Below are positions 2,847 through 34,056 of a stretch of DNA of 39,564 nucleotides, one piece after another. Positions within the stretch are counted from its first letter, which is position 1. Each line of letters begins with the position of its first letter. The position numbers and the translations under genes were made by a program. Origin of the DNA: a virus (lineage: Duplodnaviria > Heunggongvirae > Uroviricota > Caudoviricetes); the IMG/VR virus record IMGVR_UViG_2684622542_000012; one strand, written 5' to 3'. The notes beneath the pieces are model-generated. The model was not told the DNA's origin. It searched no databases and worked only from the letters and a program-made list of their open reading frames with translations.

Positions 2847-5393
2847 TCATNNNNNNNNNNNNNNNNNNNNNNNNNNNNNNNNNNNNNNNNNNNNNNNNNN
2901 NNNNNNNNNNNNNNNNNNNNNNNNNNNNNNNNNNNNNNNNNNNNNNNNNNNNNNNNNNNNNNNNNNNNNNNNNNNNNNNNNNNNNNNNNNNNNNNNNNNN
3001 NNNNNNNNNNNNNNNNNNNNNNNNNNNNNNNNNNNNNNNNNNNNNNNNNNNNNNNNNNNNNNNNNNNNNNNNNNNNNNNNNNNNNNNNNNNNNNNNNNNN
3101 NNGCCGTAGTTTTCACGTCCATGATCCAGTGAAATTCAGGGATAATTTTGTCCGGACGGCACCGACACAAAATTGCTGTTTCAGGATCTTCCCAGTAAAT
3201 TGATGATTCAGCGTGTCCGGCGCTTTCAACAAGCCATTGCCCCAGCGGCAAAGCCATAACGCTCTGATACATGAGTTCAATTTTCCGGCCTTCTTCGGCA
3301 GTGATAACCGTTTTTCCTGTGCTTGCGCATTCCCTCAGAAACGCTTTCTCTTCTTCTTTTCCGGAGTTTGTCCGGCGGTTAAATTCAGGTGCTACGATAA
3401 AGCGGTTACTGAATTCTTCCGGCTCAAGTACCCGGCAGTGGAAAGCGGTTCCTAAATCGAGCGTTTTTGTCTTTGTGGTGTCCACGGGGGCATTTTTACG
3501 CCACAAATACAGTGCCGGAGTATCAGCAATGTCATCGAGCTGAGACTTACTGACACCGGGACCCGCGTGGTAATTCTCATTCGAAATTCCGTAATAAATA
3601 CCTGGCTCTATGTCTTCTACGATTACGGGATCTGCGACTTCGCCAGTTTCATCACTGCAATCGCGATGCGGATCGCTGCCAGCATTCTCATTGTGCGGAT
3701 GTTCAGCGCCTTCCATTTCCTCCGGATCATTTTCCTTAGCTTCAACCTGACTCTCTTCATCGAATGTTTCCTGGTATGTTGCGTCGCCCATCACCGCACC
3801 ACAGTCAGGGCAGTTATCCCCGCCAGTCTGGCCGCAGGCATTGCAGGCTATTTCCGGTTCCTGTTGCACTACTGGCTCAGGTTGATTCATATCCGGGCTG
3901 GTTTTTTCCGTTTCTGGCTGGTTCTGGTACACACAATCGCGAGTCTGGATCCCCTTTACCCATTTCGGATCGTTCGGGTCGCTAATTCCGTCAACAAATT
4001 CACCACGTGATGCAGCAAGCAATTTATCGGCATCGACAGGATTTTTTGATGGAATGTTTTTCCGGGCTTCATGGAGTTCTGCCCGCAGTTCCTGATATTT
4101 CGCATCAACAGAATTTACCTGTGACTGAGCATCCAGCGGCTGCGTGTCCTGATGATGTTCAGTTGCGTCCGGTTCCATTGTTTCAGCCTCTCCCTGTTCA
4201 ACTGCCGTTGTTCCAGATGGTTGCGGTTTTTCTTCATCATCCTGTTTTCCTTCTTCTGTTACTCGCTGCGGCATCGGGGCAGAGGAGCGACCGCAGGCAA
4301 TATCCACGATTTCCGGATCAGGGTTGGCATGATCGGTTTCAGTCAGTACTTTGTTCAGATATTCAGTGACGTGCGCGGGGATGACCTCGATCCCAATTGG
4401 TGCTTCTTTTACGGACGCAACCACGATGGCGCGGGAATAATCCAGCCCGCCAGGCATGGTGATGAATTTGTCGCGGAAAACAGAAAAGGGCGGTTTATTT
4501 TCAGCGATAATTTCCTCAATGCGTTTAGCGTGTGCCGGATGAAGGTTATAGATGTCCAGATCCATTGAACGGGCCAGTACGCCAGTGGCTACGTCCCGCG
4601 CCAGTGACGTCAGATCGTGTACGAAACCTTCGCCGCGATCGGTGAGGTTTCCGCCGCCAGCATTAGCACCGGAAGCCGTGCGAGTGATGTGTGAAACACG
4701 ATTACCCTTCATCCACTCTTTTGTCAGCAGTCCTCGATCGGTGTAGTCAGCGTTCAGGTATGCTTCGAAAAAAGCAGTTATCAGTCCCAGGTTTGAATTA
4801 CCAGGATTAGGGAAAACTTTGTCAGTGTCACGAACCAGTTTGTGGAGTTCGCGAATTTCCAGCGGGTCGAGCAGGCTGGTTTTGTGGGAAACAGCCAGGG
4901 CAGTAACAGCCGGTAGTTCTTCAGCCCGAGCAATGTGTAATGCCTGGAGTCCGTCGCGTGAAACGTGCGTTACCGGTTTTTCGCTGCCGTGTTGAGCAAG
5001 CCAACGAATGGGCAGTTCCTGGCCAGAAATTGGGAGTAGCATATTCTCCTCAATCTCAGTCATGTCTTCGCCGTTGACGTTGGTATTGCCTTGATAGTGA
5101 GCGTTGTCTGGTGCTGCTCCCGGTTTTAGTTCCCATGTCATGGAGTCTTTGCTGAGTTGATAGCGTTCACTCCAGGTAAAATCGATCTCACCTTCAGCGG
5201 GCAGGTCATTAACGACAGGAAAATTCGTGGCAACAGCTTTAAAATAGCTGCTCAGTTTTTTACCTGACTTAACGATCAGGTAGTCCAGAGTGGCACAGGT
5301 CGATTCAAAATCGTTGCTTGCCCACAGGACGACGTCAGGTTCACCGGATGATTTTTTCGCTTTCCGTAACAGGAAGAGTGGTTTTGTGCTCAT
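2847..5393 (-). CDS. recE: RecE exonuclease VIII; C-terminal part lies in masked N-run 2851-3102
   Basis: Long minus-strand [44 protein letters not shown]... with acidic linker and C-terminal nuclease region ([24 protein letters not shown]...). Overlaps recT start as in the recET operon. C-terminus unreadable because of Ns. Confidence 0.85.
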
Positions 5394-11765: not shown

Positions 11766-11903
11766 ACGTTACTAGATCAAAGAGCATTAGTTCATATGTA
11801 AATTGACATTTTTCTGGCACAGGGGAGAGCTAGCGTGGTTGTCCGCTTTGTGCCAATAGCGGACATTGCTGGCTCATGGTATGTTAGTTTAAGGAGGCAG
11901 GTT

Positions 11904-12926
11904 ATGCCCTGTATTTCGCTGTGGTATAATAGTTGCGCAATTGATACAAGGGAGCGTTACATCGTGAAAATTGTTTTCGAGGTTAATGGAAAGAAAGTTC
12001 CACTAAAATCTTTAAAATACATAAGCAAAAAAGATCAACTCGAAGTAATGAAAAACTGGTTCTTTGAAAACTTTGAAGATCCGGCAAATGCTTGTCCGTA
12101 TGAAAGTAGAGAAGGTGGCTATGCTTACATATATGGCGGGCCGTATGATGCGAGCGAAGAACTACAATCCATCTTCGGTCAATATGTTAAATCTGAGTAT
12201 ATTGAGGAATTAGTAGATGAATTACAAACACAATGTTTTGACTGGTCTGGAAACTCAAATAATATAGATGATTGGTACGATGATGATATCTACGACGCTG
12301 TAACGTCTTCCGGTAATCCGTATTTAAAATTCATTGATAATATCGATAAAATAAAAAAACTTGCAAAAGATAAAACTGAACAACAGCAAAAAAACCACTT
12401 GCTTAGTTTGCTCTACACGAATGTTATTACAGCTTTGGAAACGCTTTATGTTGAGCTATTCATTAATTCTATAGAGAAAGATGATGTCTACATAGCCAAT
12501 TGTATAGAAAAAGGTAAGACTGAATTTAAAGTAAGCAAAGATATTGCTGCGTTGCCTTTCAAGGGTGAACCCATCGAGAAAATTAGGGGAGAGCTAATCA
12601 GGTCAATCAAGGAACACTTGATCAGTGCAAGCTGGCATAGCACTAAAAAGGTAATCGACCGCTATGAAGCTACATTCGATATAAAAGTACAAAAAGACTG
12701 TCCGATAGAAGCTATTGAATTGGCAACCCTCAATCGAAATCACTTAGTGCATCGTGGTGGAAAGGATAAAGAAGGGAACCTCGTAGTGATTACAGACCAG
12801 GATCTTGAAACGCTGATTGAAAATGCATCGAACCTGGCAATTATGCTCTACAACAGTTTAAATGTAGCAACGAATAAAACCACCATTTTGCAACCAGATG
12901 ACAAACCGTTCATTCATGAATTTTAA
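11904..12926 (+). CDS. Hypothetical protein A of AT-rich accessory cassette (about 340 aa)
   Basis: Strong RBS ttTAAGGAGGcaggttATG at 11904. Alternative GTG start at 11964 preceded by aagggag and an extended -10-like TGgTATAAT at about 11922-11930. Visibly AT-rich, Lys/Asn/Ile-rich coding. No family recognised. Confidence 0.55.
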   Translation: MPCISLWYNSCAIDTRERYIVKIVFEVNGKKVPLKSLKYISKKDQLEVMKNWFFENFEDPANACPYESREGGYAYIYGGPYDASEELQSIFGQYVKSEYIEELVDELQTQCFDWSGNSNNIDDWYDDDIYDAVTSSGNPYLKFIDNIDKIKKLAKDKTEQQQKNHLLSLLYTNVITALETLYVELFINSIEKDDVYIANCIEKGKTEFKVSKDIAALPFKGEPIEKIRGELIRSIKEHLISASWHSTKKVIDRYEATFDIKVQKDCPIEAIELATLNRNHLVHRGGKDKEGNLVVITDQDLETLIENASNLAIMLYNSLNVATNKTTILQPDDKPFIHEF

Positions 12927-12941
12927 TAGCGCAGGTCATAC

Positions 12942-13943
12942 ATGGATATTCGCACACGAAAGACAAAATTTTTAGAGTCGTTAGATTCAACTGAAGTGAT
13001 ACGCAAAGCAGTAAGTCTCGCTATAGATTGCATTATTGATAATCATAATAGTAATGAAGATACCCCCTTAGTTATTACCAGCTATGATGATCTCTGTAGA
13101 ATCCAGGTGCTAAATTATGTACAGGAGTTTTGCGAAGCTGCATTCCCTGATATGGATGAATATTACTTTAGTCCTAACATACTTCGCATCAACGGCAAGA
13201 CTAGTGAAGAAGCTTGTATTAACTTAATTAAACTCTTAAGAAGTACAAAAGGCATGCTATTCTGGTCCGATGCCCCATCGTGGTTCGCTAGCCTCCCCGA
13301 CGGATTATTCCATGTTGTTAACATTGATCAAAAAATCGTTACTCGCGGCCTTAATAAGAAAAACTCTAAGCCGACAATAATCAATAAAGATTACAGTGTA
13401 GATACACTACTATCAGAGCTATTTTTGAATGGCGCACACATGGAGCAACCCAACGTACACAACGTTTCTGAGGGAAACATGAAGTTCTATGATGAATGCC
13501 ATGCTGGATTAATCAGACCAATACCCGCTCCAATAGGCGCGTCATACGATGAAGAGATCACAATTAATTCTCCAGATTGGCAAAAGCTCGCGTGTGTAGC
13601 TTTACGCCGCTATCAGTCGAAGGAATGTCATGACGGAATGCAATGGGATACAACCGATCATGGTTGGACTGATGTAATCGCGTATCCATTCGTCGAAGAA
13701 ATACAATCAATGGATAATAGTGGTTATCGACAATGTTTAGTTGGGCTGGTCACAATAAACAATTCAAATGCAAATTCTCCGTACCTATCTACCGTTTGGA
13801 TACATCCATTTTATCGCAGGAGAGGGTTATTAAGTAAGTTATGGCCAAAATTACAAGAGTTATATGGAAGTAACTTCGAAATTGAGCGACCTAATGAAAA
13901 TATGAAAGCATTTCTGAAAAGTGCGAAACACGCAGATTACTAA
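12942..13943 (+). CDS. Hypothetical protein B of AT-rich cassette with GNAT-acetyltransferase-like C-terminal motif
   Basis: 333-aa ORF 15 bp after protein A. C-terminal segment ...QCLVGLVTINNSNANSPYLSTVWIHPFYRRRGLLSKLWPKLQELYG resembles the GNAT motif-A strand-helix (h-x-P-x-Y-R-x-x-G). AT-rich like gene A. Confidence 0.55.
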   Translation: MDIRTRKTKFLESLDSTEVIRKAVSLAIDCIIDNHNSNEDTPLVITSYDDLCRIQVLNYVQEFCEAAFPDMDEYYFSPNILRINGKTSEEACINLIKLLRSTKGMLFWSDAPSWFASLPDGLFHVVNIDQKIVTRGLNKKNSKPTIINKDYSVDTLLSELFLNGAHMEQPNVHNVSEGNMKFYDECHAGLIRPIPAPIGASYDEEITINSPDWQKLACVALRRYQSKECHDGMQWDTTDHGWTDVIAYPFVEEIQSMDNSGYRQCLVGLVTINNSNANSPYLSTVWIHPFYRRRGLLSKLWPKLQELYGSNFEIERPNENMKAFLKSAKHADY

Positions 13944-14563: not shown

Positions 14564-14902
14564 CTATTTTTTGGTGCTATAGACTTTTTCGCCCGAAAAG
14601 TCTGGAGCGACCCAAAAGTTAATATTAAACTGAGCATCATCGCTTAGTTCAACACGGTGCCAGTATTGTGGTGGGCTTGTTGCAAAAGCGCCAGCATTAA
14701 TGACTACTTTTATCTCCGGTTCAGTAGCATTCTCATCAGTAAAACCATAATATGTTACAGTGCCTTCCATTACGCACAACTGCCCAAAAACACCTGCTGC
14801 TGTATTATGATGTGTTAATAACGCTGAAGGTACGTTCTCTTTTGTGAAGAACGGAGTTGAGCGTTTGATTACCCAATCTTTAGGAATTCTCTTGTGTGTC
14901 AT
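14564..14902 (-). CDS. YeaR-like DUF1971 protein (TehB N-terminal-like domain)
   Basis: MTHKRIPKDWVIKRSTPFFTKENVPS...LCVMEGTVTYYGFTDENATEPE...AGAFATSPPQYWHRVE...FNINFWVAP follows the E. coli YeaR pattern as I recall it (RSTPFW...VMHG.V.Y.G..DE..EP...AG.FA..PP..WH...FNI.F.VAP). GGAGG Shine-Dalgarno before ATG at 14902. Opposite orientation to surrounding phage genes. Confidence 0.7.
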   Translation of the reverse strand: MTHKRIPKDWVIKRSTPFFTKENVPSALLTHHNTAAGVFGQLCVMEGTVTYYGFTDENATEPEIKVVINAGAFATSPPQYWHRVELSDDAQFNINFWVAPDFSGEKVYSTKK

Positions 14903-15715
14903 AACCACCTCCTCCAAAACATGCATTAAAAATGCATCTTTTGGAGGGTTATGTCAAGCTGTTATGAAACACATAATTGATATGTTGATTAGAGGAGAAG
15001 ATAGAATAAATATGGTTGTTTTTCGTATAACTATTTGTTTTACTTTTAGTTTATGCATTCTGTGTGTTAGGAATAAGTTATTAAAGTTTAATCAAAAAAT
15101 CTCGATGTAGTCCACATAGATTACTGTTACTGAACCTTATTGTGTGTATTAGTTGTGTTCTGAAATTTCAGCTTAATTATTTATGATGTATTTTTTAACG
15201 ATAAATATTTTCCCAGGATACCTTTACTGTGTATATAAATAAATTATATACGCATAAATAATGTAAAGGCGTCCTTTTAGATATATCTTATCAAATGTTA
15301 ATGACTTGAGTGGGAAATATGATTCCAGCAACTTATCATGTGGCTACTTTATAAAAATAATGCCCATATAAAACAACAAGCGAAAAGGATTACGGATAAA
15401 AAAGGAGCGAGATGTGCGAACTTGTTATTTTCCATGTTTAACCACCTTAAATAATTGATGATGACGGGATGATTGCATCTGTAATGCTTTTATTGAAATG
15501 TTATGATAAAAAAGAACTTTTGCATAACATTAAAATGTAATTTATCTAATCGTTTTTAATAATAAGTGTCGTATTTCTATCCTTGTACCAGCTATTTGAT
15601 ATGTAGTGTTTGTTCATGCTATGTGGGGCTTTACACCATAGCCAGTTTATTTATACTTTATTCGTCAGCCTGAACAACTGGCATCTGCTGCGCTGCGCCA
15701 TCGAGAGATTGAGAA

Positions 15716-17251: not shown

Positions 17252-18128
17252 ACGTCAGGAAAGCAGGGGAGAATGCTGCTAGTTGGGCAACTGGTCTTTC
17301 TGCTCCAAATTATAACAGAGACCAGTTATAGTTTCGGTGCTGTGTTTTTTTTACAATATTGTGATAACACATTGCTGGCGGGAGTTTTGATATTTCTTGG
17401 CAGGGGCTGATGATGCGTTATCCTGATGTCGTCAACTCATATAAAATGAGATGAGAGATCATTGCAGGGTGGTTTGTAATNNNNNNNNNNNNNNNNNNNN
17501 NNNNNNNNNNNNNNNNNNNNNNNNNNNNNNNNNNNNNNNNNNNNNNNNNNNNNNNNNNNNNNNNNNNNNNNNNNNNNNNNNNNNNNNNNNNNNNNNNNNN
17601 NNNNNNNNNNNNNNNNNNNNNNNNNNNNNNNNNNNNNNNNNNNNNNNNNNNNNNNNNNNNNNNNNNNNNNNNNNNNNNNNNNNNNNNNNNNNNNNNNNNN
17701 NNNNNNNNNNNNNNNNNNNNNNNNNNNNNNNNNNGTATGATGAGTATTTTTTGTTTTCCTTTTTTCCAGTCATCTGATGATGACCTGCTTCTTTTTAATC
17801 CGGATCGACATCAGTTTTTTAAGATAATTCCTGCGAGTTATATGCATAAATGCCACAAACTCCGCATTTTATGTGGTTGGGAGTTGCCGGGCGCGCAGTG
17901 AGTTTGCTAAGAAAACTCCTGCATGGTGAATCCCCCTGTGCGGTGGGGTGATACCATTAACCTTTTCTGTCGCCGACAGGTATCACGAACATTTTGTTCA
18001 CCGGGAGGCACCCGGCACCATGCACTTCAATAGATTCTCTCCACATTATGGATATTCTTTCAGAATATCCCACGCAGACTTTGTGTAAATGTTAACAAAT
18101 GTGCGTTTTATTTGATCTGATTCGCTGT

Positions 18129-18187: not shown

Positions 18188-18616
18188 ATGGGTTTTCGTA
18201 GCGCATCAATTCTTACGTTGATTATTAGTGGGATTATTATCGGGTGCACTGATGCTGTATCGACAAATTATCATGACCGTACATCATATTACTCCGATAA
18301 AGCAATAGAGACACAGTATGTGAGTTCATCTGAACGTACTTCTGATGTTAGTGAGGATATCCGTCTGTATGCCCATCAAATCAAGAGCGCCATCGAAAAA
18401 CAGTTCGGGGATGCGAGTAAGTATTCAGGAAAAGAGTGTACACTGAGAATGCATATGGCCCCGAATGGCCTTCTACTGGAGGTTAAAAGAGAAAGTGGAG
18501 ACCTCGATTTATGTCGTGAAGCGATGAATGCGATAAAGAATGCTGATATACCTGCCCCCCCTTCGCCGGAAGTATATAAAGTATTTCAAAATGGGGTGCT
18601 GGATTTTAAACCCTGA
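18188..18616 (+). CDS. Lipoprotein with TolA C-terminal domain III-like fold
   Basis: Signal peptide with lipobox IIGC. C-terminal region YAHQIKSAIEKQFGDASKYSGKECTLRMHMAPNGLLLEVKRESGDLDLCREAMNAIKNADIPAPPSPEVYKVFQNGVLDFKP is colinear with the recalled E. coli TolA C-terminus (YAGQIKSAIESKFYDASSYAGKTCTLRIKLAPDG...PPSQAVYEVFKNAPLDFKP). Confidence 0.75.
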   Translation: MGFRSASILTLIISGIIIGCTDAVSTNYHDRTSYYSDKAIETQYVSSSERTSDVSEDIRLYAHQIKSAIEKQFGDASKYSGKECTLRMHMAPNGLLLEVKRESGDLDLCREAMNAIKNADIPAPPSPEVYKVFQNGVLDFKP

Positions 18617-18937
18617 TATTTATTGTTTTGTAATAAACGGTTTCGGCTTAGGTTTGTTCTGACNNNNNNNNNNNNNNNNNNNNNNNNNNNNNNNNNNNNN
18701 NNNNNNNNNNNNNNNNNNNNNNNNNNNNNNNNNNNNNNNNNNNNNNNNNNNNNNNNNNNNNNNNNNNNNNNNNNNNNNNNNNNNNNNNNNNNNNNNNNNN
18801 NNNNNNNNNNNNNNNNNNNNNNNNNNNNNNNNNNNNNNNNNNNNNNNNNNNNNNNNNNNNNNNNNNNNNNNNNNNNNNNNNNNNNNNNNNNNNNNNNNNN
18901 NNNNNNNNNNNNNNNNNNNNNNNNNNNNNNNNNNNNN

Positions 18938-20155: not shown

Positions 20156-20687
20156 GCAGGGTAACCGCGATTATCTCCGCTCTGGTTATNNNNNNNNNNN
20201 NNNNNNNNNNNNNNNNNNNNNNNNNNNNNNNNNNNNNNNNNNNNNNNNNNNNNNNNNNNNNNNNNNNNNNNNNNNNNNNNNNNNNNNNNNNNNNNNNNNN
20301 NNNNNNNNNNNNNNNNNNNNNNNNNNNNNNNNNNNNNNNNNNNNNNNNNNNNNNNNNNNNNNNNNNNNNNNNNNNNNNNNNNNNNNNNNNNNNNNNNNNN
20401 NNNNNNNNNNNNNNNNNNNNNNNNNNNNNNNNNNNNNNNNNNNNNCGAAAGCTGAAAATGATGCTCTGCGTGATGATGTTGCCGCTGGTCGTCGTCGGTT
20501 GCACATCAAAGCAGTCTGTCAGTCAGTGCGTGAAGCCACCACCGCCTCCGGCGTGGATAATGCAGCCTCCCCCCGACTGGCAGACACCGCTGAACGGGAT
20601 TATTTCACCCTCCGGGAACGACTGGTAATGATGCAGGCCCAACTTGAAGGTGCTCAGCAATACATAACCGAGCAGTGTTTAAAGTAA
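20152..20687 (+). CDS. Rz-like inner-membrane spanin; middle in N-run 20190-20445
   Basis: Start [12 protein letters not shown]... overlaps the endolysin stop. C-terminal coiled-coil part after the gap (...[26 protein letters not shown]...[17 protein letters not shown]). Frames before and after the gap differ, so the gap length is not the true length. Confidence 0.7.
20458..20628 (+). CDS. Rz1-like outer-membrane lipoprotein spanin embedded in Rz (+1 frame)
   Basis: [56 protein letters not shown]: lipobox VVGC, proline-rich, nested in Rz. Confidence 0.65.
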   Translation: MMLCVMMLPLVVVGCTSKQSVSQCVKPPPPPAWIMQPPPDWQTPLNGIISPSGNDW

Positions 20688-20824
20688 AATCTTAACTACA
20701 ATATGATTCATTTTGATGATTGTTTCATAAGGAACAGTGAAGTAAGATCTAAGAGGAGTTAAATTTTATACAGTATAATCATAATATTGCAGCAAGGTGG
20801 TTATAATTGAAAGAATATTTAGAT

Positions 20825-22282
20825 ATGAATACATCTCATGTAAGAGTTGTTACTCATATGTGTGGGTTCCTGGTTTGGCTCTATAGTCTTTCAATGTTGC
20901 CACCAATGGTTGTAGCATTGTTTTATAAAGAAAAAAGCCTGTTCGTTTTCTTTATAACTTTCGTTATATTTTTTTGCATTGGTGGCGGAGCGTGGTATAC
21001 AACTAAGAAATCTGGCATTCAATTACGTACCCGTGATGGGTTTATTATAATTGTAATGTTTTGGATTTTGTTTTCTGTTATTAGTGCATTCCCTTTATGG
21101 ATTGACTCAGAACTTAATTTAACGTTCATTGATGCTCTGTTTGAAGGGGTTTCTGGAATAACAACAACAGGAGCAACTGTAATTGATGATGTTAGTTCAT
21201 TACCTCGGGCATATTTGTACTATCGGTCACAGTTAAATTTTATAGGTGGTTTAGGAGTTATTGTTCTGGCGGTTGCAGTATTGCCATTATTGGGTATTGG
21301 TGGTGCAAAGCTTTATCAGTCAGAAATGCCGGGGCCATTTAAGGATGACAAACTCACTCCCCGCCTGGCCGATACGTCACGGACACTGTGGATAACTTAT
21401 TCTTTATTAGGTATTGCTTGTATTGTCTGTTATAGACTTGCAGGAATGCCTTTGTTTGATGCTATTTGTCACGGGATTTCCACAGTTTCGCTTGGTGGTT
21501 TCTCAACTCATAGCGAGAGTATCGGATATTTTAATAACTATTTGGTTGAGCTGGTGGCTGGTTCTTTTTCCCTGCTATCGGCTTTCAACTTCACTCTTTG
21601 GTATATTGTTATTAGCAGAAAAACGATAAAACCTTTAATCAGAGATATTGAACTTCGTTTCTTTCTGTTAATAGCCTTAGGGGTGATCATTGTTACCTCT
21701 TTCCAGGTCTGGCATATAGGTATGTATGACTTGCATGGAAGTTTTATTCATTCGTTTTTTCTTGCCAGCTCCATGCTCACTGATAATGGTTTAGCTACGC
21801 AGGATTATGCAAACTGGCCCACGCACACGATAGTGTTTTTGCTGTTGTCAAGTTTCTTTGGGGGATGTATAGGTTCAACCTGTGGTGGAATTAAGTCACT
21901 TCGATTTCTTATACTTTTCAAACAAAGCAAACACGAGATAAATCAGCTTTCTCATCCCAGAGCGTTGTTGAGTGTAAATGTAGGAGGGAAGATAGTTACA
22001 GATCGTGTAATGAGGTCTGTATGGAGTTTCTTTTTTCTTTATACTCTCTTCACGGTGTTTTTTATACTGGTGTTAAATGGTATGGGATATGATTTTCTTA
22101 CATCATTTGCAACAGTGGCTGCATGTATTAATAATATGGGATTAGGTTTTGGGGCTACTGCATCGTCATTCGGAGTGCTTAATGACATTGCAAAATATTT
22201 AATGTGCATAGCTATGATTCTTGGTCGCCTTGAAATTTATCCTGTTATTATATTGTTTTCAGGTTTTTTTTGGCGCTCCTAA
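20825..22282 (+). CDS. trkG: TrkG potassium uptake protein (TrkH family), 485 aa
   Basis: MNTSHVRVVTHMCGFLVWLYSLSMLPPMVVALFYKEKSLFVFF... multi-pass membrane protein matching recalled Rac TrkG. Coding sequence is markedly AT-rich relative to phage neighbours. Confidence 0.9.
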   Translation: MNTSHVRVVTHMCGFLVWLYSLSMLPPMVVALFYKEKSLFVFFITFVIFFCIGGGAWYTTKKSGIQLRTRDGFIIIVMFWILFSVISAFPLWIDSELNLTFIDALFEGVSGITTTGATVIDDVSSLPRAYLYYRSQLNFIGGLGVIVLAVAVLPLLGIGGAKLYQSEMPGPFKDDKLTPRLADTSRTLWITYSLLGIACIVCYRLAGMPLFDAICHGISTVSLGGFSTHSESIGYFNNYLVELVAGSFSLLSAFNFTLWYIVISRKTIKPLIRDIELRFFLLIALGVIIVTSFQVWHIGMYDLHGSFIHSFFLASSMLTDNGLATQDYANWPTHTIVFLLLSSFFGGCIGSTCGGIKSLRFLILFKQSKHEINQLSHPRALLSVNVGGKIVTDRVMRSVWSFFFLYTLFTVFFILVLNGMGYDFLTSFATVAACINNMGLGFGATASSFGVLNDIAKYLMCIAMILGRLEIYPVIILFSGFFWRS

Positions 22283-22419
22283 TATATGGCTGATTTATAA
22301 TTGTGAGTTTAATATTATGTTGACTCACTCATTGATCCAATACCTAACTTTACCAGCAACACCTCCGCCCCCAGTAGCACTGGCTGCTGGGGTGCGTTTT
22401 ATTCATAAAGCAAGGCTGT

Positions 22420-22860
22420 ATGAGCGAGAAATTAAAGATAGTCTATCGCCCATTACAAGAATTGTCACCGTATGCGCACAACGCCAGGACGCACAGTACT
22501 GAGCAGGTGGCACAACTGGTAGAAAGTATTAAGCAATTCGGCTGGACTAATCCGGTNNNNNNNNNNNNNNNNNNNNNNNNNNNNNNNNNNNNNNNNNNNN
22601 NNNNNNNNNNNNNNNNNNNNNNNNNNNNNNNNNNNNNNNNNNNNNNNNNNNNNNNNNNNNNNNNNNNNNNNNNNNNNNNNNNNNNNNNNNNNNNNNNNNN
22701 NNNNNNNNNNNNNNNNNNNNNNNNNNNNNNNNNNNNNNNNNNNNNNNNNNNNNNNNNNNNNNNNNNNNNNNNNNNNNNNNNNNNNNNNNNNNNNNNNNNN
22801 NNNNNNNNNNNNNNNNNNNNNNNNNNNNNNNNNNNNNNNNNNAAATTGATGAACTGTTGA
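22420..22860 (+). CDS. ynaK: ParB-like nuclease domain protein (YnaK-like); middle in N-run 22557-22842
   Basis: N-terminus MSEKLKIVYRPLQELSPYAHNARTHSTEQVAQLVESIKQFGWTNP has the ParB N-terminal signature (L.PY..NAR.H). Rest masked. Confidence 0.6.
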   Translation: MSEKLKIVYRPLQELSPYAHNARTHSTEQVAQLVESIKQFGWTNPXXXXXXXXXXXXXXXXXXXXXXXXXXXXXXXXXXXXXXXXXXXXXXXXXXXXXXXXXXXXXXXXXXXXXXXXXXXXXXXXXXXXXXXXXXXXXXXXKLMNC

Positions 22861-23246
22861 CGGATGTTTTGCCCGGTACAGGAAATGAGGAGGAGCCGTA
22901 TACGACGAAAATTGATACGCCTGTTTATGAGCCGTCAGGCGGTAAACCGGATATCAGTGAACTGTACGACGATACGAAAACTCAGGAGCTGATCAGCCGG
23001 ATACGTTCGGCGTCCCTTGATCCTGATATTGAGAAATTCCTCCTGTGTGCAGCAGAACGTCACACGGTGTTTAATTTCAGCAGAATTGCGGACTATTACG
23101 CTCATGCCCCCGCTGAAATTCAGTGCCTTTTCGAGGAGTCGGCGCTGGTGATCATTGATTATCAGCAGGCTATTGAAAATGGATTTGTCCGAATGACGCA
23201 GCGCATGGTGGAGATCATGCATGGCGGGGAGGAGGAATATGCGTGA
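22857..23246 (+). CDS. ydaY: YdaY-like hypothetical protein
   Basis: 129-aa acidic ORF MTDVLPGTGNEEEPYTTKIDTPVYEPSGGKPDISELYDD... ATGA overlap with the preceding stop. Assignment by position in Rac and vague recall. Confidence 0.5.
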   Translation: MTDVLPGTGNEEEPYTTKIDTPVYEPSGGKPDISELYDDTKTQELISRIRSASLDPDIEKFLLCAAERHTVFNFSRIADYYAHAPAEIQCLFEESALVIIDYQQAIENGFVRMTQRMVEIMHGGEEEYA

Positions 23247-24171
23247 TGATTTTTGCGCCTTTATTCTGACTCACGGGCGACCGGACAAAGTTCTGACTTA
23301 CCGGACGTTGCGTCGTGCTGGCTATACCGGGAAAATTTTTATCGTTGTTGATGATGAAGATAAGACACGGCATCAGTACATGGCTGAATTTGGTGAACAG
23401 GTGCTGGTATTTTCCAAAGCCGATATTGCTAGTCGTTTTGACGAAGCCGATAATTTTAGTGACCGCCGCTCAATTTTTTACGCCCGTAATGCCTGTTTCG
23501 ACCAGGCAAAACTGGTCGGGTGTAAATACTTCATTCAGCTCGATGATGATTATCACGAGTTCCAGTTTCGGGTGGATCGCAACTATGACCAGGCCTATTT
23601 CCCGATAAGGAAACTGGATGAGATCCTTTCTGAAATGCTTGCGTACTACGAATCAATACCTGCTCTTTCCATCGCTATGTCGCAGGGCGGGGATTTTCTT
23701 GGTGACAATGGCGGCCATGCTTCGTGGGTGAAACGCAAGGCAATGAACAGCTTTATCTGTTCGGTTGATCGACCGTTCTCATTCATGGGGCGCATTAACG
23801 AGGATGTGAATACGTACACGAATCTCGGTCGCTGTGGTGAATTGTTTATGACGATCGGTGCTGTCCAGTTAGGGCAGAAACAGACGCAGAAAAACAGCGG
23901 CGGAATGACCGAGCTGTATCTGGATTCCGGAACCTACGTTAAAAGTTTTTACTCCGTCATGTATGCGCCGTCGTGCGTAAAAATCTCACTTATGGGTGCC
24001 AGTCATAAACGCATTCACCATCAGGTCACCTGGAACAACGCTGCAGTAAAAATCCTTCACGAAAAATACAGGAAGAAGACACCCTGCATATCAATGGGGG
24101 TGACAAATGATTCCGTATTCGAAAGTCGAGTCTCTGGCAGCGTGCCGGATGACTGCACAACAAATCGCTGA
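23239..24171 (+). CDS. Hypothetical protein with DDD motif (possible nucleotide/sugar-transferase-like fold)
   Basis: ATG at 23239 preceded by GGAGGAGG. Contains ILTHGRPDKV...IFIVVDDED...YFIQLDDDYHEF reminiscent of DxD-type transferases. No confident family. Confidence 0.5.
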   Translation: MRDDFCAFILTHGRPDKVLTYRTLRRAGYTGKIFIVVDDEDKTRHQYMAEFGEQVLVFSKADIASRFDEADNFSDRRSIFYARNACFDQAKLVGCKYFIQLDDDYHEFQFRVDRNYDQAYFPIRKLDEILSEMLAYYESIPALSIAMSQGGDFLGDNGGHASWVKRKAMNSFICSVDRPFSFMGRINEDVNTYTNLGRCGELFMTIGAVQLGQKQTQKNSGGMTELYLDSGTYVKSFYSVMYAPSCVKISLMGASHKRIHHQVTWNNAAVKILHEKYRKKTPCISMGVTNDSVFESRVSGSVPDDCTTNR

Positions 24172-24358
24172 CGTTCTGGATGTTGATCTGAACCGACTGA
24201 AAGAAAATCGGGAAGCAATGACAGATTTTTATGCGGCCATCCGTAAGGGCAGAGCGAAAGGTGAAGCCGAGTTACGAGCGGCATTGTTTAAGCTTGCCAG
24301 AAAAGGGGATGCCTTTGCTCTGCGCGAACTACTCAGGGTGGATAAAAATCAGGACTAA
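24107..24358 (+). CDS. Small hypothetical protein (possible DNA-binding protein)
   Basis: 83-aa basic ORF overlapping the end of the previous gene, upstream of the packaging genes. Confidence 0.35.
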   Translation: MIPYSKVESLAACRMTAQQIADVLDVDLNRLKENREAMTDFYAAIRKGRAKGEAELRAALFKLARKGDAFALRELLRVDKNQD

Positions 24359-24361
24359 CTG

Positions 24362-25456
24362 ATGAGCAGACCGGACTGGGGGGCGTTGCAGCAGGAGTAT
24401 ATTGCTGAATACACCCGCTCCGGTATATCTCCGGTGGCATGGTGTGAAGCAAGGGGACTGAATTACGCAACAGCCCGTCGTTACATCAAAAAAACTCCGA
24501 AAAATGCGCAGACAGAAATGTGCAAAACTGCGCAAAAAAGTGCGCAGAAAAAATCTGCGCAGACTGCACAAAAGCGGAACGAAAAATCTCAGGAAAAAAA
24601 GCCAGTATTCGATGCGGGCCTGAATGAGGGCGACGCGGAGGAATTTTCGTTCTGTCCCGATGAATTCGGCATTTCTGACCAGCAGGCTAAGTTTGCGATG
24701 CTTGTTGCTCAGGGTAAAAAGCCGACAGAGGCGTACCGACTAGCCGGTTATGAGGGGCAAGGTGCGACAGCTAACAGCAACGCCAGTCGTATGCTTAGAA
24801 ATGCCAGGGTTTTTCGCGCTATCAGCTACTTCCGCAATCAGTACCAGAAACGCTATACCGCAGACCTGGATTTACTAGTGAGTCAGTTGATGGCTATTGT
24901 CCTGGCCGACCCCAATCAGCTTGCACAATTTCGCCGTGTTAACTGCCGTTATTGCTGGGGCGAGAATCATCTCTACCAGTGGCGCGATATAGCAGAATTC
25001 GACAAGGCAGCGGCGCAGGCTTCCAGAGATGGCAAACCCGAACCGGAATATGGAGGCCTCGGCTTTGTTGATAACGCCATACCCAATCCGGACTGCCCGA
25101 AGTGCTGCGGTGAGGGAACGGGACAGCTTTATATGGCTGATACCACTCTGCTTGATGGGGATGCGCGGCAATTATATGCAGGGGCAAAATTCGGAAAATT
25201 CGGCGTTGAGATCCTGCTGGAGGATAAGGCTGCCGCCCGGCGTGAATTGTTGCGTTTGTTTTCTGCTGGCGGGGCTTTATGTGCAGATAAGCGGCTACGG
25301 GAACTGGAAATTGAACGGCGCAGAATGGAAAACCAGAAGCTGCGCAAAGAGATCGAAACGGTGGAAGATAATGAACATCCCCAGCCTGTGGCGATCAATA
25401 TTAATGTGGTTGATGCCAGAGTAAGGAGTGATGAAGATGATCTCTCCGACGCTTAA
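24362..25456 (+). CDS. Putative terminase small subunit / DNA-packaging protein with Cys-rich zinc-finger region
   Basis: Immediately upstream of and overlapping the terminase large subunit. N-terminal HTH-like region (YATARRYIKK) and CRYCWGENH...CPKCCGEG motif. Confidence 0.5.
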   Translation: MSRPDWGALQQEYIAEYTRSGISPVAWCEARGLNYATARRYIKKTPKNAQTEMCKTAQKSAQKKSAQTAQKRNEKSQEKKPVFDAGLNEGDAEEFSFCPDEFGISDQQAKFAMLVAQGKKPTEAYRLAGYEGQGATANSNASRMLRNARVFRAISYFRNQYQKRYTADLDLLVSQLMAIVLADPNQLAQFRRVNCRYCWGENHLYQWRDIAEFDKAAAQASRDGKPEPEYGGLGFVDNAIPNPDCPKCCGEGTGQLYMADTTLLDGDARQLYAGAKFGKFGVEILLEDKAAARRELLRLFSAGGALCADKRLRELEIERRRMENQKLRKEIETVEDNEHPQPVAININVVDARVRSDEDDLSDA

Positions 25457-26748
25457 TGTGCCTCAGGCGCGATTTCTTTCAATGCCCCATAAATTTAAAG
25501 CCTATATTGCTGGTTTTGGCTCGGGCAAAACATGGGTTGGGTGTGGCGGCATATGCAAGGGGATTTGGGAGCATCCAGGTATAAATCAGGGATATTTTGC
25601 GCCAACGTATCCCCAAATTCGCGATATTTTTTACCCTACAGTGGAAGAAGTTGCTGCTGACTGGGGATTGAACGTAAAAATTAATGAGGGAAATAAAGAG
25701 GTTCACTTTTATTACGGACGCCAGTATCGGGGAACCACTATCTGCAGATCGATGGAGAAGCCACAAACGATCGTCGGTTTCAAAATTGGTAATGCGTTGG
25801 TGGATGAACTGGACATTTTGCCGAAGGAAAAAGCCAGAACGGCGTGGCGCAAGATAATTGCACGTATGCGTTATAAGATTGATGGACTTCGCAACGGTAT
25901 TGACGTTACAACCACGCCGGAAGGATTCAAATTTGTCTACGAGCAGTTTGTTAAAGCCGTGCGTGAAAAAACAGAGCTGGCCTCACTGTATGGTCTGGTG
26001 CAGGCATCTACTTTCGATAATGAAAAGAACCTGCCAGCAGATTACATTCCTTCGCTTCTTGAATCATACCCTCCAGAGCTGATTAAAGCCTATCTTCGAG
26101 GACAGTTTACTAACCTGACAAGTGGTACTGTTTACCATCAGTTTGACCGGAAACTGAATAATTGCGAAGAAGTGGAGCAGCCAGGGGAGCCGATTTATAT
26201 TGGGATGGATTTTAACGTTGGAAAGATGGCGGGAATCGTCCATGTGCTGCGTTTGGGGCTTCCATGTGCGGTAACTGAAATCATCAATGCCTACGATACG
26301 CCGGATATGATCCGCATCATTAAAGAACGCTTCTGGCTGTATGATGGGAATGATTACCGGAANNNNNNNNNNNNNNNNNNNNNNNNNNNNNNNNNNNNNN
26401 NNNNNNNNNNNNNNNNNNNNNNNNNNNNNNNNNNNNNNNNNNNNNNNNNNNNNNNNNNNNNNNNNNNNNNNNNNNNNNNNNNNNNNNNNNNNNNNNNNNN
26501 NNNNNNNNNNNNNNNNNNNNNNNNNNNNNNNNNNNNNNNNNNNNNNNNNNNNNNNNNNNNNNNNNNNNNNNNNNNNNNNNNNNNNNNNNNNNNNNNNNNN
26601 NNNNNNNNNNNNNCAGGTCTGGGATGAGAAGGGGGAGCCTGATAAAAAATCTGGCAATGATCACCCGAATGATGCCGGAGGTTATTTCATCGTTAAGCAA
26701 TTCCCTATTGTCAAACCGACCGGAAGAGTCACATCACTTCGGATTTAA
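25437..26748 (+). CDS. Terminase large subunit; part in N-run 26363-26613
   Basis: Walker A YIAGFGSGKTWVGCGG near the N-terminus. RBS gtAAGGAGtg upstream. C-terminal segment continues after the gap to stop at 26746-26748. Confidence 0.85.
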
Positions 26749-33157: not shown

Positions 33158-34056
33158 GTGAGTTCAGGTGCAAAGGTTATCTCGGCATTTATCCGGGAGA
33201 CGGTTGCAGGCACTACGCCAGCAAGTGGTGACTGGAGTTTATTAAAACGCACAAGCTGGGGAGTAAAANNNNNNNNNNNNNNNNNNNNNNNNNNNNNNNN
33301 NNNNNNNNNNNNNNNNNNNNNNNNNNNNNNNNNNNNNNNNNNNNNNNNNNNNNNNNNNNNNNNNNNNNNNNNNNNNNNNNNNNNNNNNNNNNNNNNNNNN
33401 NNNNNNNNNNNNNNNNNNNNNNNNNNNNNNNNNNNNNNNNNNNNNNNNNNNNNNNNNNNNNNNGCTCATGGAAAATGCAGATCCCTAACGACGGCGATAT
33501 TACAGCGACCGTAACCTTTGCCGGACTGGACTGGGAATCAAAGGCCGATGATACGAATTTTATCAAAGGCGAACCTGTGGATAGTGCAGGAAAGCTACGT
33601 TATTCGTTTAAGGAGGTTTCAGCAGTAAGCCTGAATGGTGTTGCCGGAGGTAACGGTTTTTGTATCGACAGTTTTGATATTCAGTTCGATAACAAACTCC
33701 AGACACAGCGTTGTATCGGGACTGGCTCGCCTTATGCAGGAGCAAATATTCCGACTACTTTTACACCGTCCGGTACGGTGACGCTTTCATGGTCTAAAGC
33801 CGCGTGGGAAATCTGGAGTAAAACACTGACTGGAGAAACAGTTCCGTTCAGCTTCACGCTTTCGAATGGAGAGGGGGCATACACTTTCAGTTTCCCGAAG
33901 GTTCAGGTGTCAGGTGAATGGCCTGATGGGGGTAATAGCGACATTATCCAGGTTCAATTGAGCATTACCGCAGCAGATGAAGCACCTACGATAACCAGAA
34001 AAAAAAATTCCCCGGCTGCCGTGATCGCAAAAGCCAGTGCTGAGGCGATTAGTTGA
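33158..34056 (+). CDS. Putative major tail (tube) protein; interrupted by N-run 33269-33463
   Basis: N-terminal fragment MSSGAKVISAFIRETVAGTTPASGDWSLLKRTSWGVK..., then a Thr/Ser/Gly-rich beta-type sequence after the gap to stop at 34056. Frames differ across the gap. Confidence 0.55.

What the first reader, a model, noticed from the sequence alone, without database searches (positions are those of the whole stretch)
22420..24171. ParB-like nuclease, YdaY-like and DDD-motif genes between lysis and packaging modules
Three genes of unclear function sit between the lysis module/trkG and the packaging genes. A ParB-family N-terminus (partly masked) next to a DxD-type putative transferase (23239-24171) is the kind of pairing seen in phage DNA-modification or anti-restriction modules. 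The transferase assignment is tentative.
Basis: inference. Interest (0 to 1): 0.5.

Follow-up and report, generated by a model that had tools for sequence, protein, structure and literature searches.

The report
ParB-partnered glycosyltransferase cassette in Rac prophage
Just upstream of the DNA-packaging genes of this E. coli Rac-type prophage sit two coupled genes, a ParB-like adaptor protein and a sugar-transferring enzyme of the family that glycosylates DNA bases. They travel together in phages of many phyla, yet lack the hydroxylating enzyme such transferases are known to need, so what they modify is an open and easily testable question.

Summary
The finding holds two genes, not three. 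The N-masks in this window do not keep sequence length. In E. coli EC2, whose unmasked flanks are 100% identical, the "ParB" and "YdaY-like" ORFs are one 262-aa ORF. True ydaY is a tail-region gene. K-12 ynaK is the 5' stump left by an 11.5-kb deletion.

Gene 1 (22420-23246) has four parts:
- a ParB/Srx N-domain;
- a helical segment, which together with the N-domain matches the N-terminal module of ParB-fused DNA methyltransferases;
- a disordered linker;
- a strongly conserved ~110-aa C-terminal domain (CTD) with no Pfam or PDB match.

Gene 2 (23239-24171) is a GT-A glycosyltransferase of Pfam TAGT (E 3.7e-34), the family named for association with TET/JBP dioxygenases. Its R/DDD/ED motifs are intact.

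In 108 of 109 loci the CTD gene lies immediately upstream of the TAGT gene. These loci span Enterobacterales, Bacteroides, Lactobacillus phages and an archaeal virus. The pair usually sits directly before the terminase genes.

No TET/JBP dioxygenase or other conserved third gene accompanies the pair. Both genes are under strong purifying selection (dN/dS below 0.1).

Best reading: a late-expressed, ParB-adaptor-assisted DNA glycosyltransferase. Its acceptor is unknown. I rate it a new variant of a known kind and moderately interesting.

The parts
22369..22392 (+). Terminator-like hairpin (10 bp, 7 G-C) followed by TGCGTTTTAT. It ends the inserted accessory ('moron') gene trkG, so the cassette downstream must be read as part of the late operon.
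   Evidence: sequence
22420..23246 (+). Gene 1: full-length YnaK-type ParB partner. It is 262 aa / 789 nt in the unmasked EC2 copy. The window length is inflated by a 286-N mask over a 248-nt stretch.
   Evidence: PF02195; phrog_620 over the full length
22420..22556 (+). Visible part of the ParB/Srx N-terminal NTP-binding domain. The rest of this domain and the helix-helix segment lie under the mask.
   Evidence: Residues 3-141 match phrog_498 'DNA methyltransferase' (E 6e-51) and residues 10-144 match PADLOC MTase_II (E 1.5e-38).
22557..22842 (.). N-mask that does not preserve length. It hides aa 46-129 of gene 1 and creates the false frame break.
22893..23243 (+). Conserved C-terminal domain (CTD) of gene 1. 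Motif: YTxKIxxPxYEP...FLxxAAxRHxVF...SALVIIDxxxAIxxG. It is the invariant partner of this TAGT subfamily.
   Evidence: no Pfam or PDB match
23239..24171 (+). Gene 2: TAGT-family GT-A glycosyltransferase (310 aa). Its ATG overlaps the gene 1 stop (ATGCGTGA) and is preceded by GGAGGAGG.
23278..23280 (+). Invariant Arg14, the 'R' of the R...DDD...ED motif set.
   Evidence: motif definition
23542..23550 (+). Invariant DDD (D102-D104), the metal/nucleotide-sugar binding motif.
23800..23805 (+). Invariant E188-D189 (NEDV), equivalent to the ED(Y/F) motif of phage GT-A DNA glycosyltransferases and the base-J glucosyltransferase JGT.
24107..24358 (+). Small ORF (83 aa; PGAP aa from 24149) with similarity to a terminase small subunit. 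It is the first packaging gene and overlaps the E. coli-specific 3' extension of gene 2.
   Evidence: phrog_309, E 1e-17; an ~85-aa ORF at the same position in enterobacterial relatives
24362..25456 (+). Terminase small subunit. Context only: the cassette lies directly upstream of the packaging genes.

Best explanation
The locus is a translationally coupled two-gene cassette at the head of the late (packaging) operon of a Rac-type lambdoid prophage.

Gene 2 is a catalytically intact GT-A nucleotide-sugar transferase. It belongs to the TAGT family, which includes JGT, GREB1 and phage DNA glycosyltransferases.

Gene 1 is its obligate partner. Its core is a newly delineated ~110-aa C-terminal domain. 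In most lineages that domain is fused to a ParB/Srx NTP-binding domain plus a helical segment. These together match the N-terminal module of ParB-fused DNA methyltransferases.

I infer that the partner binds and activates or positions the transferase on double-stranded phage DNA late in infection. Progeny genomes would then be sugar-tagged shortly before or during packaging, presumably to blunt host nucleases in the next cell. This mirrors ParB-dependent thymine dioxygenases, where a ParB with the same layout is required for activity on dsDNA.

Shown here: family membership, intact motifs, obligate pairing, position, selection, and the absence of a dioxygenase partner.

Inferred, not shown: that DNA is the substrate, that the partner activates the enzyme, and the biological role. 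The acceptor group is unknown, because no source of 5-hydroxymethyl-pyrimidine is present.
For: 1. Family and fold. Pfam TAGT E 3.7e-34. phrog_842 E 7.5e-104. The AF2 model has a GT-A fold, with best viral matches being TAGT-domain proteins at TM 0.7-0.8.

2. Motifs. R14, D102-104 and E188-D189 are invariant in 45 sequences. They match the R...DDD...ED(Y/F) motifs of characterised phage GT-A DNA glycosyltransferases and JGT.

3. Obligate pairing. In 108 of 109 loci the CTD gene ends within 150 nt upstream of the TAGT gene on the same strand. The loci span several bacterial phyla plus the archaeal virus HHTV-2.

4. No other conserved neighbour. Among 15 diverse loci only these two genes are conserved.

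5. The partner's core is the CTD. Its N-terminal ~140 aa matches the N-terminal module of ParB-methyltransferase fusions. The CTD is better conserved than the ParB domain. The CTD occurs alone next to TAGT in a Lachnospiraceae phage (between DNA polymerase A and the sliding clamp) and in Vibrio phage pv27 (replication module).

6. Layout. NBD, helix-helix, disordered linker and CTD, without an HTH. This equals ParB176, which activates its cognate DNA dioxygenase on dsDNA.

7. DNA-centred context. The pair lies directly upstream of five or more unrelated terminase types. Neighbours include DNA methylases and replication genes. One relative has a TAGT::SAM-methyltransferase fusion plus a second TAGT, typical of glycan tailoring.

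8. Constraint. Purifying selection is strong: dN/dS 0.07 for TAGT and 0.09 for the partner. TAGT identity across phyla is 51-59%, which fits a universal substrate.

9. Charge. TAGT is mildly basic, median pI 8.4.
Against: - Every characterised DNA glycosyltransferase of this family needs 5hmC or 5hmU.
- None of the following was found in this prophage: a TET/JBP dioxygenase, a thymidylate-synthase-type hydroxymethylase, or a cytosine methylase.
- None was found within 8-10 kb in six Pfam-annotated relatives.
- The complete genomes of Lactobacillus phages phi jlb1 and c5 have essentially no spare ORF large enough for such an enzyme.
- The partner protein is very acidic (median net charge -27, pI 4.5) and has no DNA-binding domain. 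This fits an activator better than a DNA loader.
- GREB1, of the same family, glycosylates a protein (PMC7968844).
- The authors who mined these enzymes regarded GT contigs without a dioxygenase or ThyS as less obviously DNA-related.
- No experiment exists. The AF2 models are only moderate (pLDDT 74 and 64).
Confidence: 0.5

Rival explanations
1. Protein glycosyltransferase. The TAGT enzyme O-glycosylates a protein, as GREB1 does. The target could be its own partner, at the invariant Tyr/Thr-containing peptide YTxKIxxPxYEP in the disordered linker, or a packaging or host protein.
For: - GREB1 of the same family O-GlcNAcylates ER-alpha (PMC7968844).
- An invariant Y-T-x-K-x-x-x-P-x-Y peptide sits in a low-confidence, disordered stretch of the partner.
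- No hydroxymethyl-pyrimidine source exists.
- The partner is acidic and lacks a DNA-binding domain.
Against: - The ParB_N plus helical module is the one fused to DNA methyltransferases.
- CTD-only pairs sit inside replication modules.
- 51-59% identity of the enzyme across phyla and into an archaeal virus suggests a universal substrate.
- The catalytic motifs match those of DNA-acting relatives.
Confidence: 0.15
2. Strict 5hmC/5hmU glycosyltransferase without a resident substrate. The cassette acts only on hydroxymethyl-pyrimidine DNA. In this prophage it is then idle, or depends on an unrecognised hydroxylase, or acts on foreign hydroxymethylated DNA such as that of co-infecting phages.
For: - All characterised family members use 5hmC or 5hmU.
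- The authors of PMC13229309 report that many phage dioxygenases escape the Pfam TET/JBP model.
- Vibrio phage pv27, which carries a CTD-TAGT pair, encodes a thymidylate-synthase homolog elsewhere in its genome.
Against: - No third conserved gene was found in 15 diverse loci.
- phi jlb1 has no unassigned early ORF above about 120 aa, and c5 has only one of about 209 aa.
- dN/dS below 0.1 and thousands of intact copies argue against an idle relic.
- The pv27 thymidylate-synthase homolog sits next to dihydrofolate reductase, which looks like ordinary dTMP synthesis.
Confidence: 0.15
3. Envelope or small-molecule glycosyltransferase, that is, lysogenic conversion or anti-defence by modifying a metabolite or RNA. 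On this reading the ParB-like gene is functionally unrelated.
For: - GT-A enzymes of prophages such as TarP remodel cell-wall polymers, and structural similarity to them was noted for phage GT-A enzymes.
- The Foldseek PDB hits are polysaccharide and peptide glycosyltransferases.
Against: - The pairing holds in 108 of 109 loci, with overlapping stop and start codons.
- The same pair occurs in Gram-negative, Gram-positive and archaeal viruses, whose envelopes are unrelated.
- The cassette lies in the late operon behind a terminator, not in a lysogeny-expressed accessory position.
- There is no PADLOC match for the enzyme.
Confidence: 0.05
4. Partition protein or nuclease. The ParB-like gene works in prophage or plasmid partition, or as a packaging nuclease, and its adjacency to the transferase is incidental.
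For: - Historical Pfam name ('ParB-like nuclease domain').
- Phage records annotate it as a 'partitioning protein'.
- Position next to the terminase.
Against: - No HTH domain and no parA gene; the TIGR00180 score is 38 bits against a 58-bit cutoff.
- GERR is replaced by GHGR.
- The prophage is integrated, not a plasmid.
- The pairing statistics and the CTD-only partners exclude an incidental neighbour.
Confidence: 0.03

Closest known systems
Phage 5-methylpyrimidine-dioxygenase (5mYOX, TET/JBP) hypermodification clusters with ParB and GT-A glycosyltransferases (Burke 2021, PMC8256090; bioRxiv 10.1101/2023.12.21.572611; O'Toole 2026, PMC13229309)
   Same: - Same glycosyltransferase family (TAGT / JGT-like GT-A) with the same catalytic motifs.
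- A ParB homolog with the same layout: NBD, helix-helix, unstructured linker and CTD, with no DNA-binding domain.
- Frequent proximity to the terminase.
   Different: - No dioxygenase, cytosine C5-methylase or ThyS-type hydroxymethylase is present.
- The ParB-type partner is coupled directly to the glycosyltransferase.
- The partner's CTD, not its ParB domain, is the invariant element and can occur alone.
Kinetoplastid base-J glucosyltransferase (JGT)
   Same: TAGT-family GT-A enzyme with R/DDD/ED motifs, known to transfer glucose to a DNA base.
   Different: JGT acts on 5hmU made by JBP1/2 and has no ParB-type partner. Here no hydroxylase exists.
ParB_N-fused phage and prophage DNA methyltransferases (phrog_498; PADLOC MTase_II)
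   Same: The first ~140 aa of gene 1 are homologous to their N-terminal module (E 6e-51 and 1.5e-38). Per PMC12704722 these fusions are strongly enriched in prophage regions.
   Different: The catalytic domain is not fused. Instead a CTD follows, and a separate glycosyltransferase gene is translationally coupled. The chemistry is glycosyl transfer rather than methyl transfer.
GREB1 (animal TAGT-domain protein)
   Same: Same Pfam family. PGAP names the E. coli protein 'GREB1-related protein'.
   Different: GREB1 is a large multidomain cytoplasmic protein reported to O-GlcNAcylate ER-alpha. It has no ParB-type partner and no viral context.
T4 alpha- and beta-glucosyltransferases
   Same: They would work alike: post-replicative sugar tagging of phage DNA to evade restriction.
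   Different: The T4 enzymes have a GT-B fold, act on 5hmC incorporated during replication, and need no adaptor.

Membership tests
TAGT (PF20691; JGT/GREB1/phage GT-A DNA glycosyltransferases) | Sequence match to the family model above the curated cutoff | tested here: met
   118.9 bits against a 27.5-bit cutoff, E 3.7e-34, residues 8-222. All 120 listed homologs carry PF20691.
TAGT (PF20691; JGT/GREB1/phage GT-A DNA glycosyltransferases) | GT-A fold | tested here: met
   AF2 model with pLDDT 74 and pTM 0.74. Foldseek hits to GT-A enzymes K4CP, SpsA and SunS. Hits to viral TAGT-domain models at TM 0.7-0.8.
TAGT (PF20691; JGT/GREB1/phage GT-A DNA glycosyltransferases) | Catalytic motifs R...DDD...ED(Y/F) | tested here: met
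   R14, D102-D104 and E188-D189 are invariant in 45 sequences. The third position of the last motif is V rather than Y/F.
TAGT (PF20691; JGT/GREB1/phage GT-A DNA glycosyltransferases) | Genomic association with a source of 5-hydroxymethyl-pyrimidine (a TET/JBP dioxygenase or a ThyS-type hydroxymethylase) | tested here: not met
   None found in the prophage, in six Pfam-annotated relatives within 8-10 kb, among 125 neighbour ORFs (only the top 25 of 65 matched families are shown), or in the complete phi jlb1 and c5 genomes. No third conserved gene.
TAGT (PF20691; JGT/GREB1/phage GT-A DNA glycosyltransferases) | Transfers sugar to 5hmC or 5hmU in DNA | not testable with these tools
   Needs LC-MS of DNA or an in vitro assay.
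ParB-dependent DNA-modification enzymes (5mYOX/ParB, PMC13229309) | ParB homolog with NBD, helix-helix, unstructured linker and CTD, lacking the HTH DNA-binding domain | tested here: met
   AF2 domain layout. ParB_N aligns to the Noc/Spo0J NTP-binding domain only. Description of ParB176. Sequence homology of the two CTDs could not be tested because no ParB176 sequence is held.
ParB-dependent DNA-modification enzymes (5mYOX/ParB, PMC13229309) | Cognate enzyme is a TET/JBP-type thymine dioxygenase | tested here: not met
   The coupled enzyme is a glycosyltransferase, and no dioxygenase was found.
ParB-dependent DNA-modification enzymes (5mYOX/ParB, PMC13229309) | Enzyme activity on dsDNA depends on the ParB partner | not testable with these tools
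   Only co-occurrence (108 of 109 loci) and translational coupling are shown.
Canonical ParABS partition ParB | Central HTH parS-binding domain, a ParA partner, and a match to TIGR00180 | tested here: not met
   No HTH. No parA in the prophage. TIGR00180 scores 38.1 bits against a 58.45-bit cutoff.
Canonical ParABS partition ParB | GERRxRA CTP-binding/hydrolysis motif | tested here: inconclusive
   The aligned motif is IIAGHGR, so G and the last R are kept while E becomes H and R becomes G. Nucleotide binding is untested.
ParB_N-DNA methyltransferase fusions | N-terminal ParB_N plus helical module | tested here: met
   phrog_498 positions 31-171 of 633, E 6e-51. PADLOC MTase_II positions 13-151 of 436, E 1.5e-38.
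ParB_N-DNA methyltransferase fusions | Methyltransferase catalytic domain in the same protein | tested here: not met
   Only ParB_N is detected. The C-terminal 117 aa have no Pfam match.
YdaY | Homology or orthologous position to E. coli ydaY | tested here: not met
   ydaY is annotated after the tail tube gene in EC2 (L002 36500-36859). The K-12 ynaK-ydaY adjacency is a deletion junction.

The most novel reading that the evidence does not exclude
The CTD/ParB-TAGT pair glycosylates DNA that carries no hydroxymethyl handle. The target would be a canonical base, a DNA end or the backbone. That would be a kind of DNA modification chemistry not yet described. It would be carried by roughly 15-30% of complete E. 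coli genomes and by phages of many phyla, with the CTD as a new activator or acceptor-presenting subunit.
Probability: 0.2. Interest if true: 0.9.

Novelty: new variant of a known kind. Interest (0 to 1): 0.55.

Why it matters
Phage DNA glycosylation is currently understood as a second step on 5hmC or 5hmU. Database mining has left most GT-A "DNA glycosyltransferase" hits (about 65% of contigs) without a hydroxylating partner and without an explanation.

This cassette is a clean, abundant example of that orphan class:
- It is self-contained: two genes under strong purifying selection.
- It is spread from E. coli to Lactobacillus phages and a haloarchaeal virus.
- It sits in an inducible E. coli prophage whose K-12 relative keeps only the stump (ynaK).

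If it modifies DNA, it reveals either a new acceptor chemistry or a hidden source of hydroxylated bases. It would also extend the "ParB as activator of DNA-modifying enzymes" principle from dioxygenases and methylases to glycosyltransferases. If it modifies a protein, it gives a bacterial model for GREB1-type enzymes. Either way, standard E. coli genetics and nucleoside mass spectrometry can answer the question.

Tried and rejected
- Separate middle gene. I treated the middle ORF (22857-23246) as a gene of its own and rejected this once the masks proved not to preserve length and EC2 showed one ORF.
- YdaY homology. Rejected.
- Hidden dioxygenase or hydroxymethylase. I looked in four places and found none:
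  - Pfam on ten early-region ORFs of the window.
  - Precomputed Pfam around six relatives.
  - Batch Pfam on 125 neighbour ORFs. Only the top 25 of 65 families are shown, so a single weak hit cannot be fully excluded.
  - All-versus-all clustering for a conserved third gene.
- PDB sequence searches. TAGT returned only noise. The CTD returned only weak chance-level hits to armadillo repeats and adhesin.
- Pfam on 14 diverse CTDs gave nothing significant.
- PADLOC and NCBIfam gave no hit for the enzyme.
- Iyer et al. 2013 (PMC3763556), the original TAGT paper, is not held.
- No supplementary sequences are held for PMC13229309, so CTD homology to ParB176 could not be tested.
- A literature search for 'ynaK' returned mostly noise. 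No functional study of a ParB-glycosyltransferase pair without a dioxygenase was found.
- Vibrio phage pv27 check. The first 50 kb show a thymidylate-synthase homolog next to dihydrofolate reductase, which is not informative about hydroxymethylation. I did not pursue it further.
- Nocardia phage NTR1 shows the same gene order but is otherwise unannotated.
- CTD-TAGT fusion proteins. None appear among the top 150 CTD representatives. The CTD is always at the C-terminus.
Full report
**What the window is.** The 39.5-kb window is an essentially complete Rac-type lambdoid prophage of E. coli. Its gene order is intR, xis, recET, immunity and replication genes, Q-like genes, lysis genes, trkG, the finding, terminase, portal, P22-type capsid and tail. 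The region 22300-24400 is 100% identical, outside the mask, to E. coli EC2 and several other genomes. Of 5426 complete E. coli genomes, 1607 have a match and 840 carry at least 80% of it.

**Checking the observation.**
- ORFs exist at the stated coordinates, but the three-gene picture is an artefact.
- All seven N-runs in the window differ in length from the homologous EC2 segments: 252/245, 254/255, 274/245, 256/185, 286/248, 251/241 and 195/259. Reading frames cannot be followed across a mask.
- With the 248-nt EC2 sequence in place, 22420-23246 is one 789-nt ORF of 262 aa. The database cluster of the intact 263-aa protein contains 1812 sequences.
- The 'YdaY-like' label is wrong. ydaY lies after the tail tube gene in EC2.
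- K-12 Rac is collinear with EC2 only up to nucleotide 254 of this gene. It then jumps 11.5 kb to ydaY. K-12 ynaK (87 aa) is therefore the 5' stump of gene 1, and K-12 has lost gene 2, the packaging and head genes and the tail tube gene.

**Gene 2 (23239-24171).**
- The start at 23239 fits the homologs (MRDDFCAF...). It is preceded by GGAGGAGG and overlaps the gene 1 stop in ATGCGTGA.
- The protein matches Pfam TAGT, the family named for association with TET/JBP dioxygenases, at 118.9 bits against a cutoff of 27.5. It also matches phrog_842. PGAP names it 'GREB1-related protein'.
- It has no sequence relative in the PDB.
- An AF2 model (pLDDT 74) has a GT-A fold. The best solved matches are K4CP, SpsA and SunS. 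The best viral models are other TAGT-domain proteins at TM 0.7-0.8.
- R14, D102-D104 and E188-D189 are invariant in 45 homologs. They correspond to the R...DDD...ED(Y/F) motifs reported for phage GT-A DNA glycosyltransferases and the base-J glucosyltransferase JGT.
- The E. coli protein has a 3' extension of about 22 aa that overlaps the next ORF. Relatives are about 288 aa.

**Gene 1 (22420-23246).** The full protein has four parts.
- Residues 1-95 are a ParB/Srx N-domain (PF02195). It aligns to the NTP-binding domain of Noc, Spo0J and ParB, with GERR replaced by GHGR.
- A helical segment follows at about residues 103-134.
- Residues 136-169 are a low-confidence, probably disordered stretch.
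- Residues 170-255 are a helical C-terminal region.
- There is no HTH. TIGR00180 scores below its cutoff and there is no parA gene.
- The first ~140 residues match the N-terminal module of ParB-fused DNA methyltransferases: phrog_498 at E 6e-51 and PADLOC MTase_II at E 1.5e-38.

**The C-terminal domain (CTD).**
- It spans ~110 residues with the motif YTxKIxxPxYEP...FLxxAAxRHxVF...SALVIIDxxxAIxxG.
- It is better conserved across phyla than the ParB domain.
- It has no Pfam or PDB counterpart.
- A search of 1.84 billion representative proteins finds 1196 clusters with this domain. In the 150 best matches listed it lies at the C-terminus.
- Five of the six longer proteins checked carry ParB_N. 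The four short ones checked have no Pfam domain.
- The whole protein is very acidic (median net charge -27), whereas the transferase is mildly basic.

**The pairing.**
- In 109 loci holding a TAGT homolog, 108 have the CTD coding region ending within 150 nt upstream on the same strand.
- The loci come from viral contigs, species-representative genomes, metagenomes and cultured phages.
- They include Enterobacterales, Bacteroides, Dysgonomonas, Lachnospiraceae, Prosthecochloris, Saccharibacteria and Hyphomonadaceae. They also include Lactobacillus phages phi jlb1 and c5 (tblastn additionally detects the transferase in LL-Ku), Nocardia phage NTR1, Vibrio phage pv27 (related large Vibrio phages also carry the transferase) and the archaeal virus HHTV-2.
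- TAGT identity across phyla is still 51-59%.
- In two lineages the partner is the CTD alone, without ParB_N. One is a Lachnospiraceae phage, where the order is DNA polymerase A, CTD, TAGT, sliding clamp. The other is Vibrio phage pv27, where the pair sits in a replication module.
- So the CTD is the invariant partner and ParB_N a common accessory.
- One relative has ParB-CTD, then a TAGT fused to a SAM-methyltransferase, then a second TAGT. This looks like glycan elaboration.

**Position and expression.**
- In most of the loci examined the pair lies directly upstream of the terminase genes, whatever the terminase type. The types seen are Terminase_2/P22-like here, Terminase_4/HK97-like, GpA/lambda-like, Terminase_3, Terminase_6N and GP3.
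- In phage c5 the pair starts 90 bp from the cos site.
- In the window, trkG ends with a strong terminator-like hairpin at 22369-22392. No convincing promoter precedes gene 1. The cassette is therefore presumably read with the Q-dependent late transcript.
- The small ORF that follows (24107-24358) resembles part of a terminase small subunit.

**What is missing.**
- No TET/JBP dioxygenase, thymidylate-synthase-type hydroxymethylase or cytosine methylase is present in the prophage.
- None occurs within 8-10 kb in six independent Pfam-annotated relatives.
- None appears among the families shown for 125 neighbour ORFs.
- Clustering of all neighbours in 15 diverse loci finds no conserved gene other than the two.
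- The complete genome of phi jlb1 has no unassigned early ORF above about 120 aa. That of c5 has only one, of about 209 aa.
- Both genes are under strong purifying selection: dN/dS 0.07 and 0.09, with synonymous sites saturated in the more distant comparisons. The cassette is not a decaying relic.

**Interpretation.** Published work gives three relevant points.
- Phage TAGT-like GT-A enzymes glycosylate 5hmC made by methylase plus dioxygenase.
- A ParB with exactly this domain layout is required by a subclass of phage thymine dioxygenases to act on dsDNA.
- About 65% of mined GT contigs lack a dioxygenase or ThyS neighbour and remain unexplained.

The cassette here is a well-defined member of that unexplained class. 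I consider it most likely (about 0.5) to be a DNA glycosyltransferase. On this reading the ParB/CTD partner activates or positions the enzyme on replicated phage DNA just before packaging. That would be analogous to ParB-methylase fusions and ParB-dependent dioxygenases.

The acceptor is the open point. The options are a canonical base or DNA end (new chemistry), an unrecognised supply of hydroxylated bases, or not DNA at all. The rivals are listed with their evidence:
- protein glycosylation, possibly of the partner's invariant Tyr/Thr peptide;
- a strict 5hm-pyrimidine enzyme with no resident substrate;
- an envelope or small-molecule glycosyltransferase;
- a partition protein or nuclease.

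**Verdict.** The gene count, the YdaY label and 'nuclease' do not hold. The family and the general ParB association are known. The dioxygenase-free, CTD-centred two-gene form and its tight linkage to packaging genes are not described in the papers I could reach. I rate it a new variant of a known kind, with interest 0.55.

Noticed in passing
window 2851-3102, 17481-17734, 18664-18937, 20190-20445, 22557-22842, 26363-26613, 33269-33463: None of the seven N-masks preserves the length of the hidden sequence. Differences from the EC2 homolog range from -64 to +71 nt. ORFs that cross a mask therefore appear frameshifted, for example the terminase large subunit at 25428-26748.
   Followed up: yes
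L003 (K-12 MG1655) 4378-4981 versus L002 24951/36508: K-12 Rac carries an 11.5-kb deletion running from nucleotide 254 of the ParB-CTD gene to the start of ydaY. It removed the glycosyltransferase, terminase, portal, capsid and tail tube genes. K-12 ynaK is the resulting stump.
   Followed up: yes
L001 6121-6909 (EC2): RefSeq/PGAP annotates only the first 258 nt as a ynaK pseudogene ('missing C-terminus') and leaves the rest of an intact 262-aa ORF, including the conserved CTD, unannotated. This looks like an annotation artefact driven by the truncated K-12 protein.
   Followed up: partly
window 11835-12926 and 12942-13943 (+): Two adjacent large ORFs (363 and 333 aa) lie between the replication genes and the Q region. 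Both have only weak, sub-cutoff Pfam hits (HEPN/RES N-terminal domain 1, E 1.9e-4; GNAT, E 9e-4) and no PADLOC match. They may be an accessory gene pair with a toxin or defence role.
   Followed up: partly
window 20807-22282 (+) and 22369-22392: trkG, a potassium transporter gene, sits as an accessory insertion between the lysis genes and the cassette, with its own terminator-like hairpin.
   Followed up: partly
window 18188-18616 (+): A phage-encoded TolA C-terminal-domain protein (PF06519, E 2.4e-23) lies upstream of the lysis genes. EC2 additionally has a tolA fragment pseudogene next to it.
   Followed up: no
window 14564-14926 (-): A DUF1971 gene lies on the opposite strand in the region between the early and late genes.
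   Followed up: no
window 24090-24171: The E. coli TAGT gene has a 3' extension of about 22 codons that is absent from relatives (310 aa against about 288 aa). It overlaps the following terminase-like small ORF in another frame.
   Followed up: partly
L106 2614-6161 (Hyphomonadaceae MAG): The gene order is ParB-CTD, then a 564-aa TAGT fused to a class I SAM methyltransferase, then a second TAGT. This variant suggests a methylated or two-sugar product.
   Followed up: partly
L095 4242-5516 (Dysgonomonas prophage): A PAPS-reductase/DUF3440 protein lies about 1.7 kb upstream of the ParB-TAGT pair. From memory, this is the IbrA type that is usually paired with a ParB-like IbrB.
   Followed up: no
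L098 8875-9447 (Faecousia MAG): A second, separate ParB_N protein (190 aa) is encoded immediately downstream of the TAGT gene.
   Followed up: no
one search hits P0200, P0201, P0208, P0219, P0220, P0230, P0237: Many E. coli database proteins are chimeras of the ParB N-terminus with Lom, tail-fibre, NlpC/P60 or terminase fragments. This indicates repeated independent deletions at this point in decaying Rac-type prophages.
   Followed up: no
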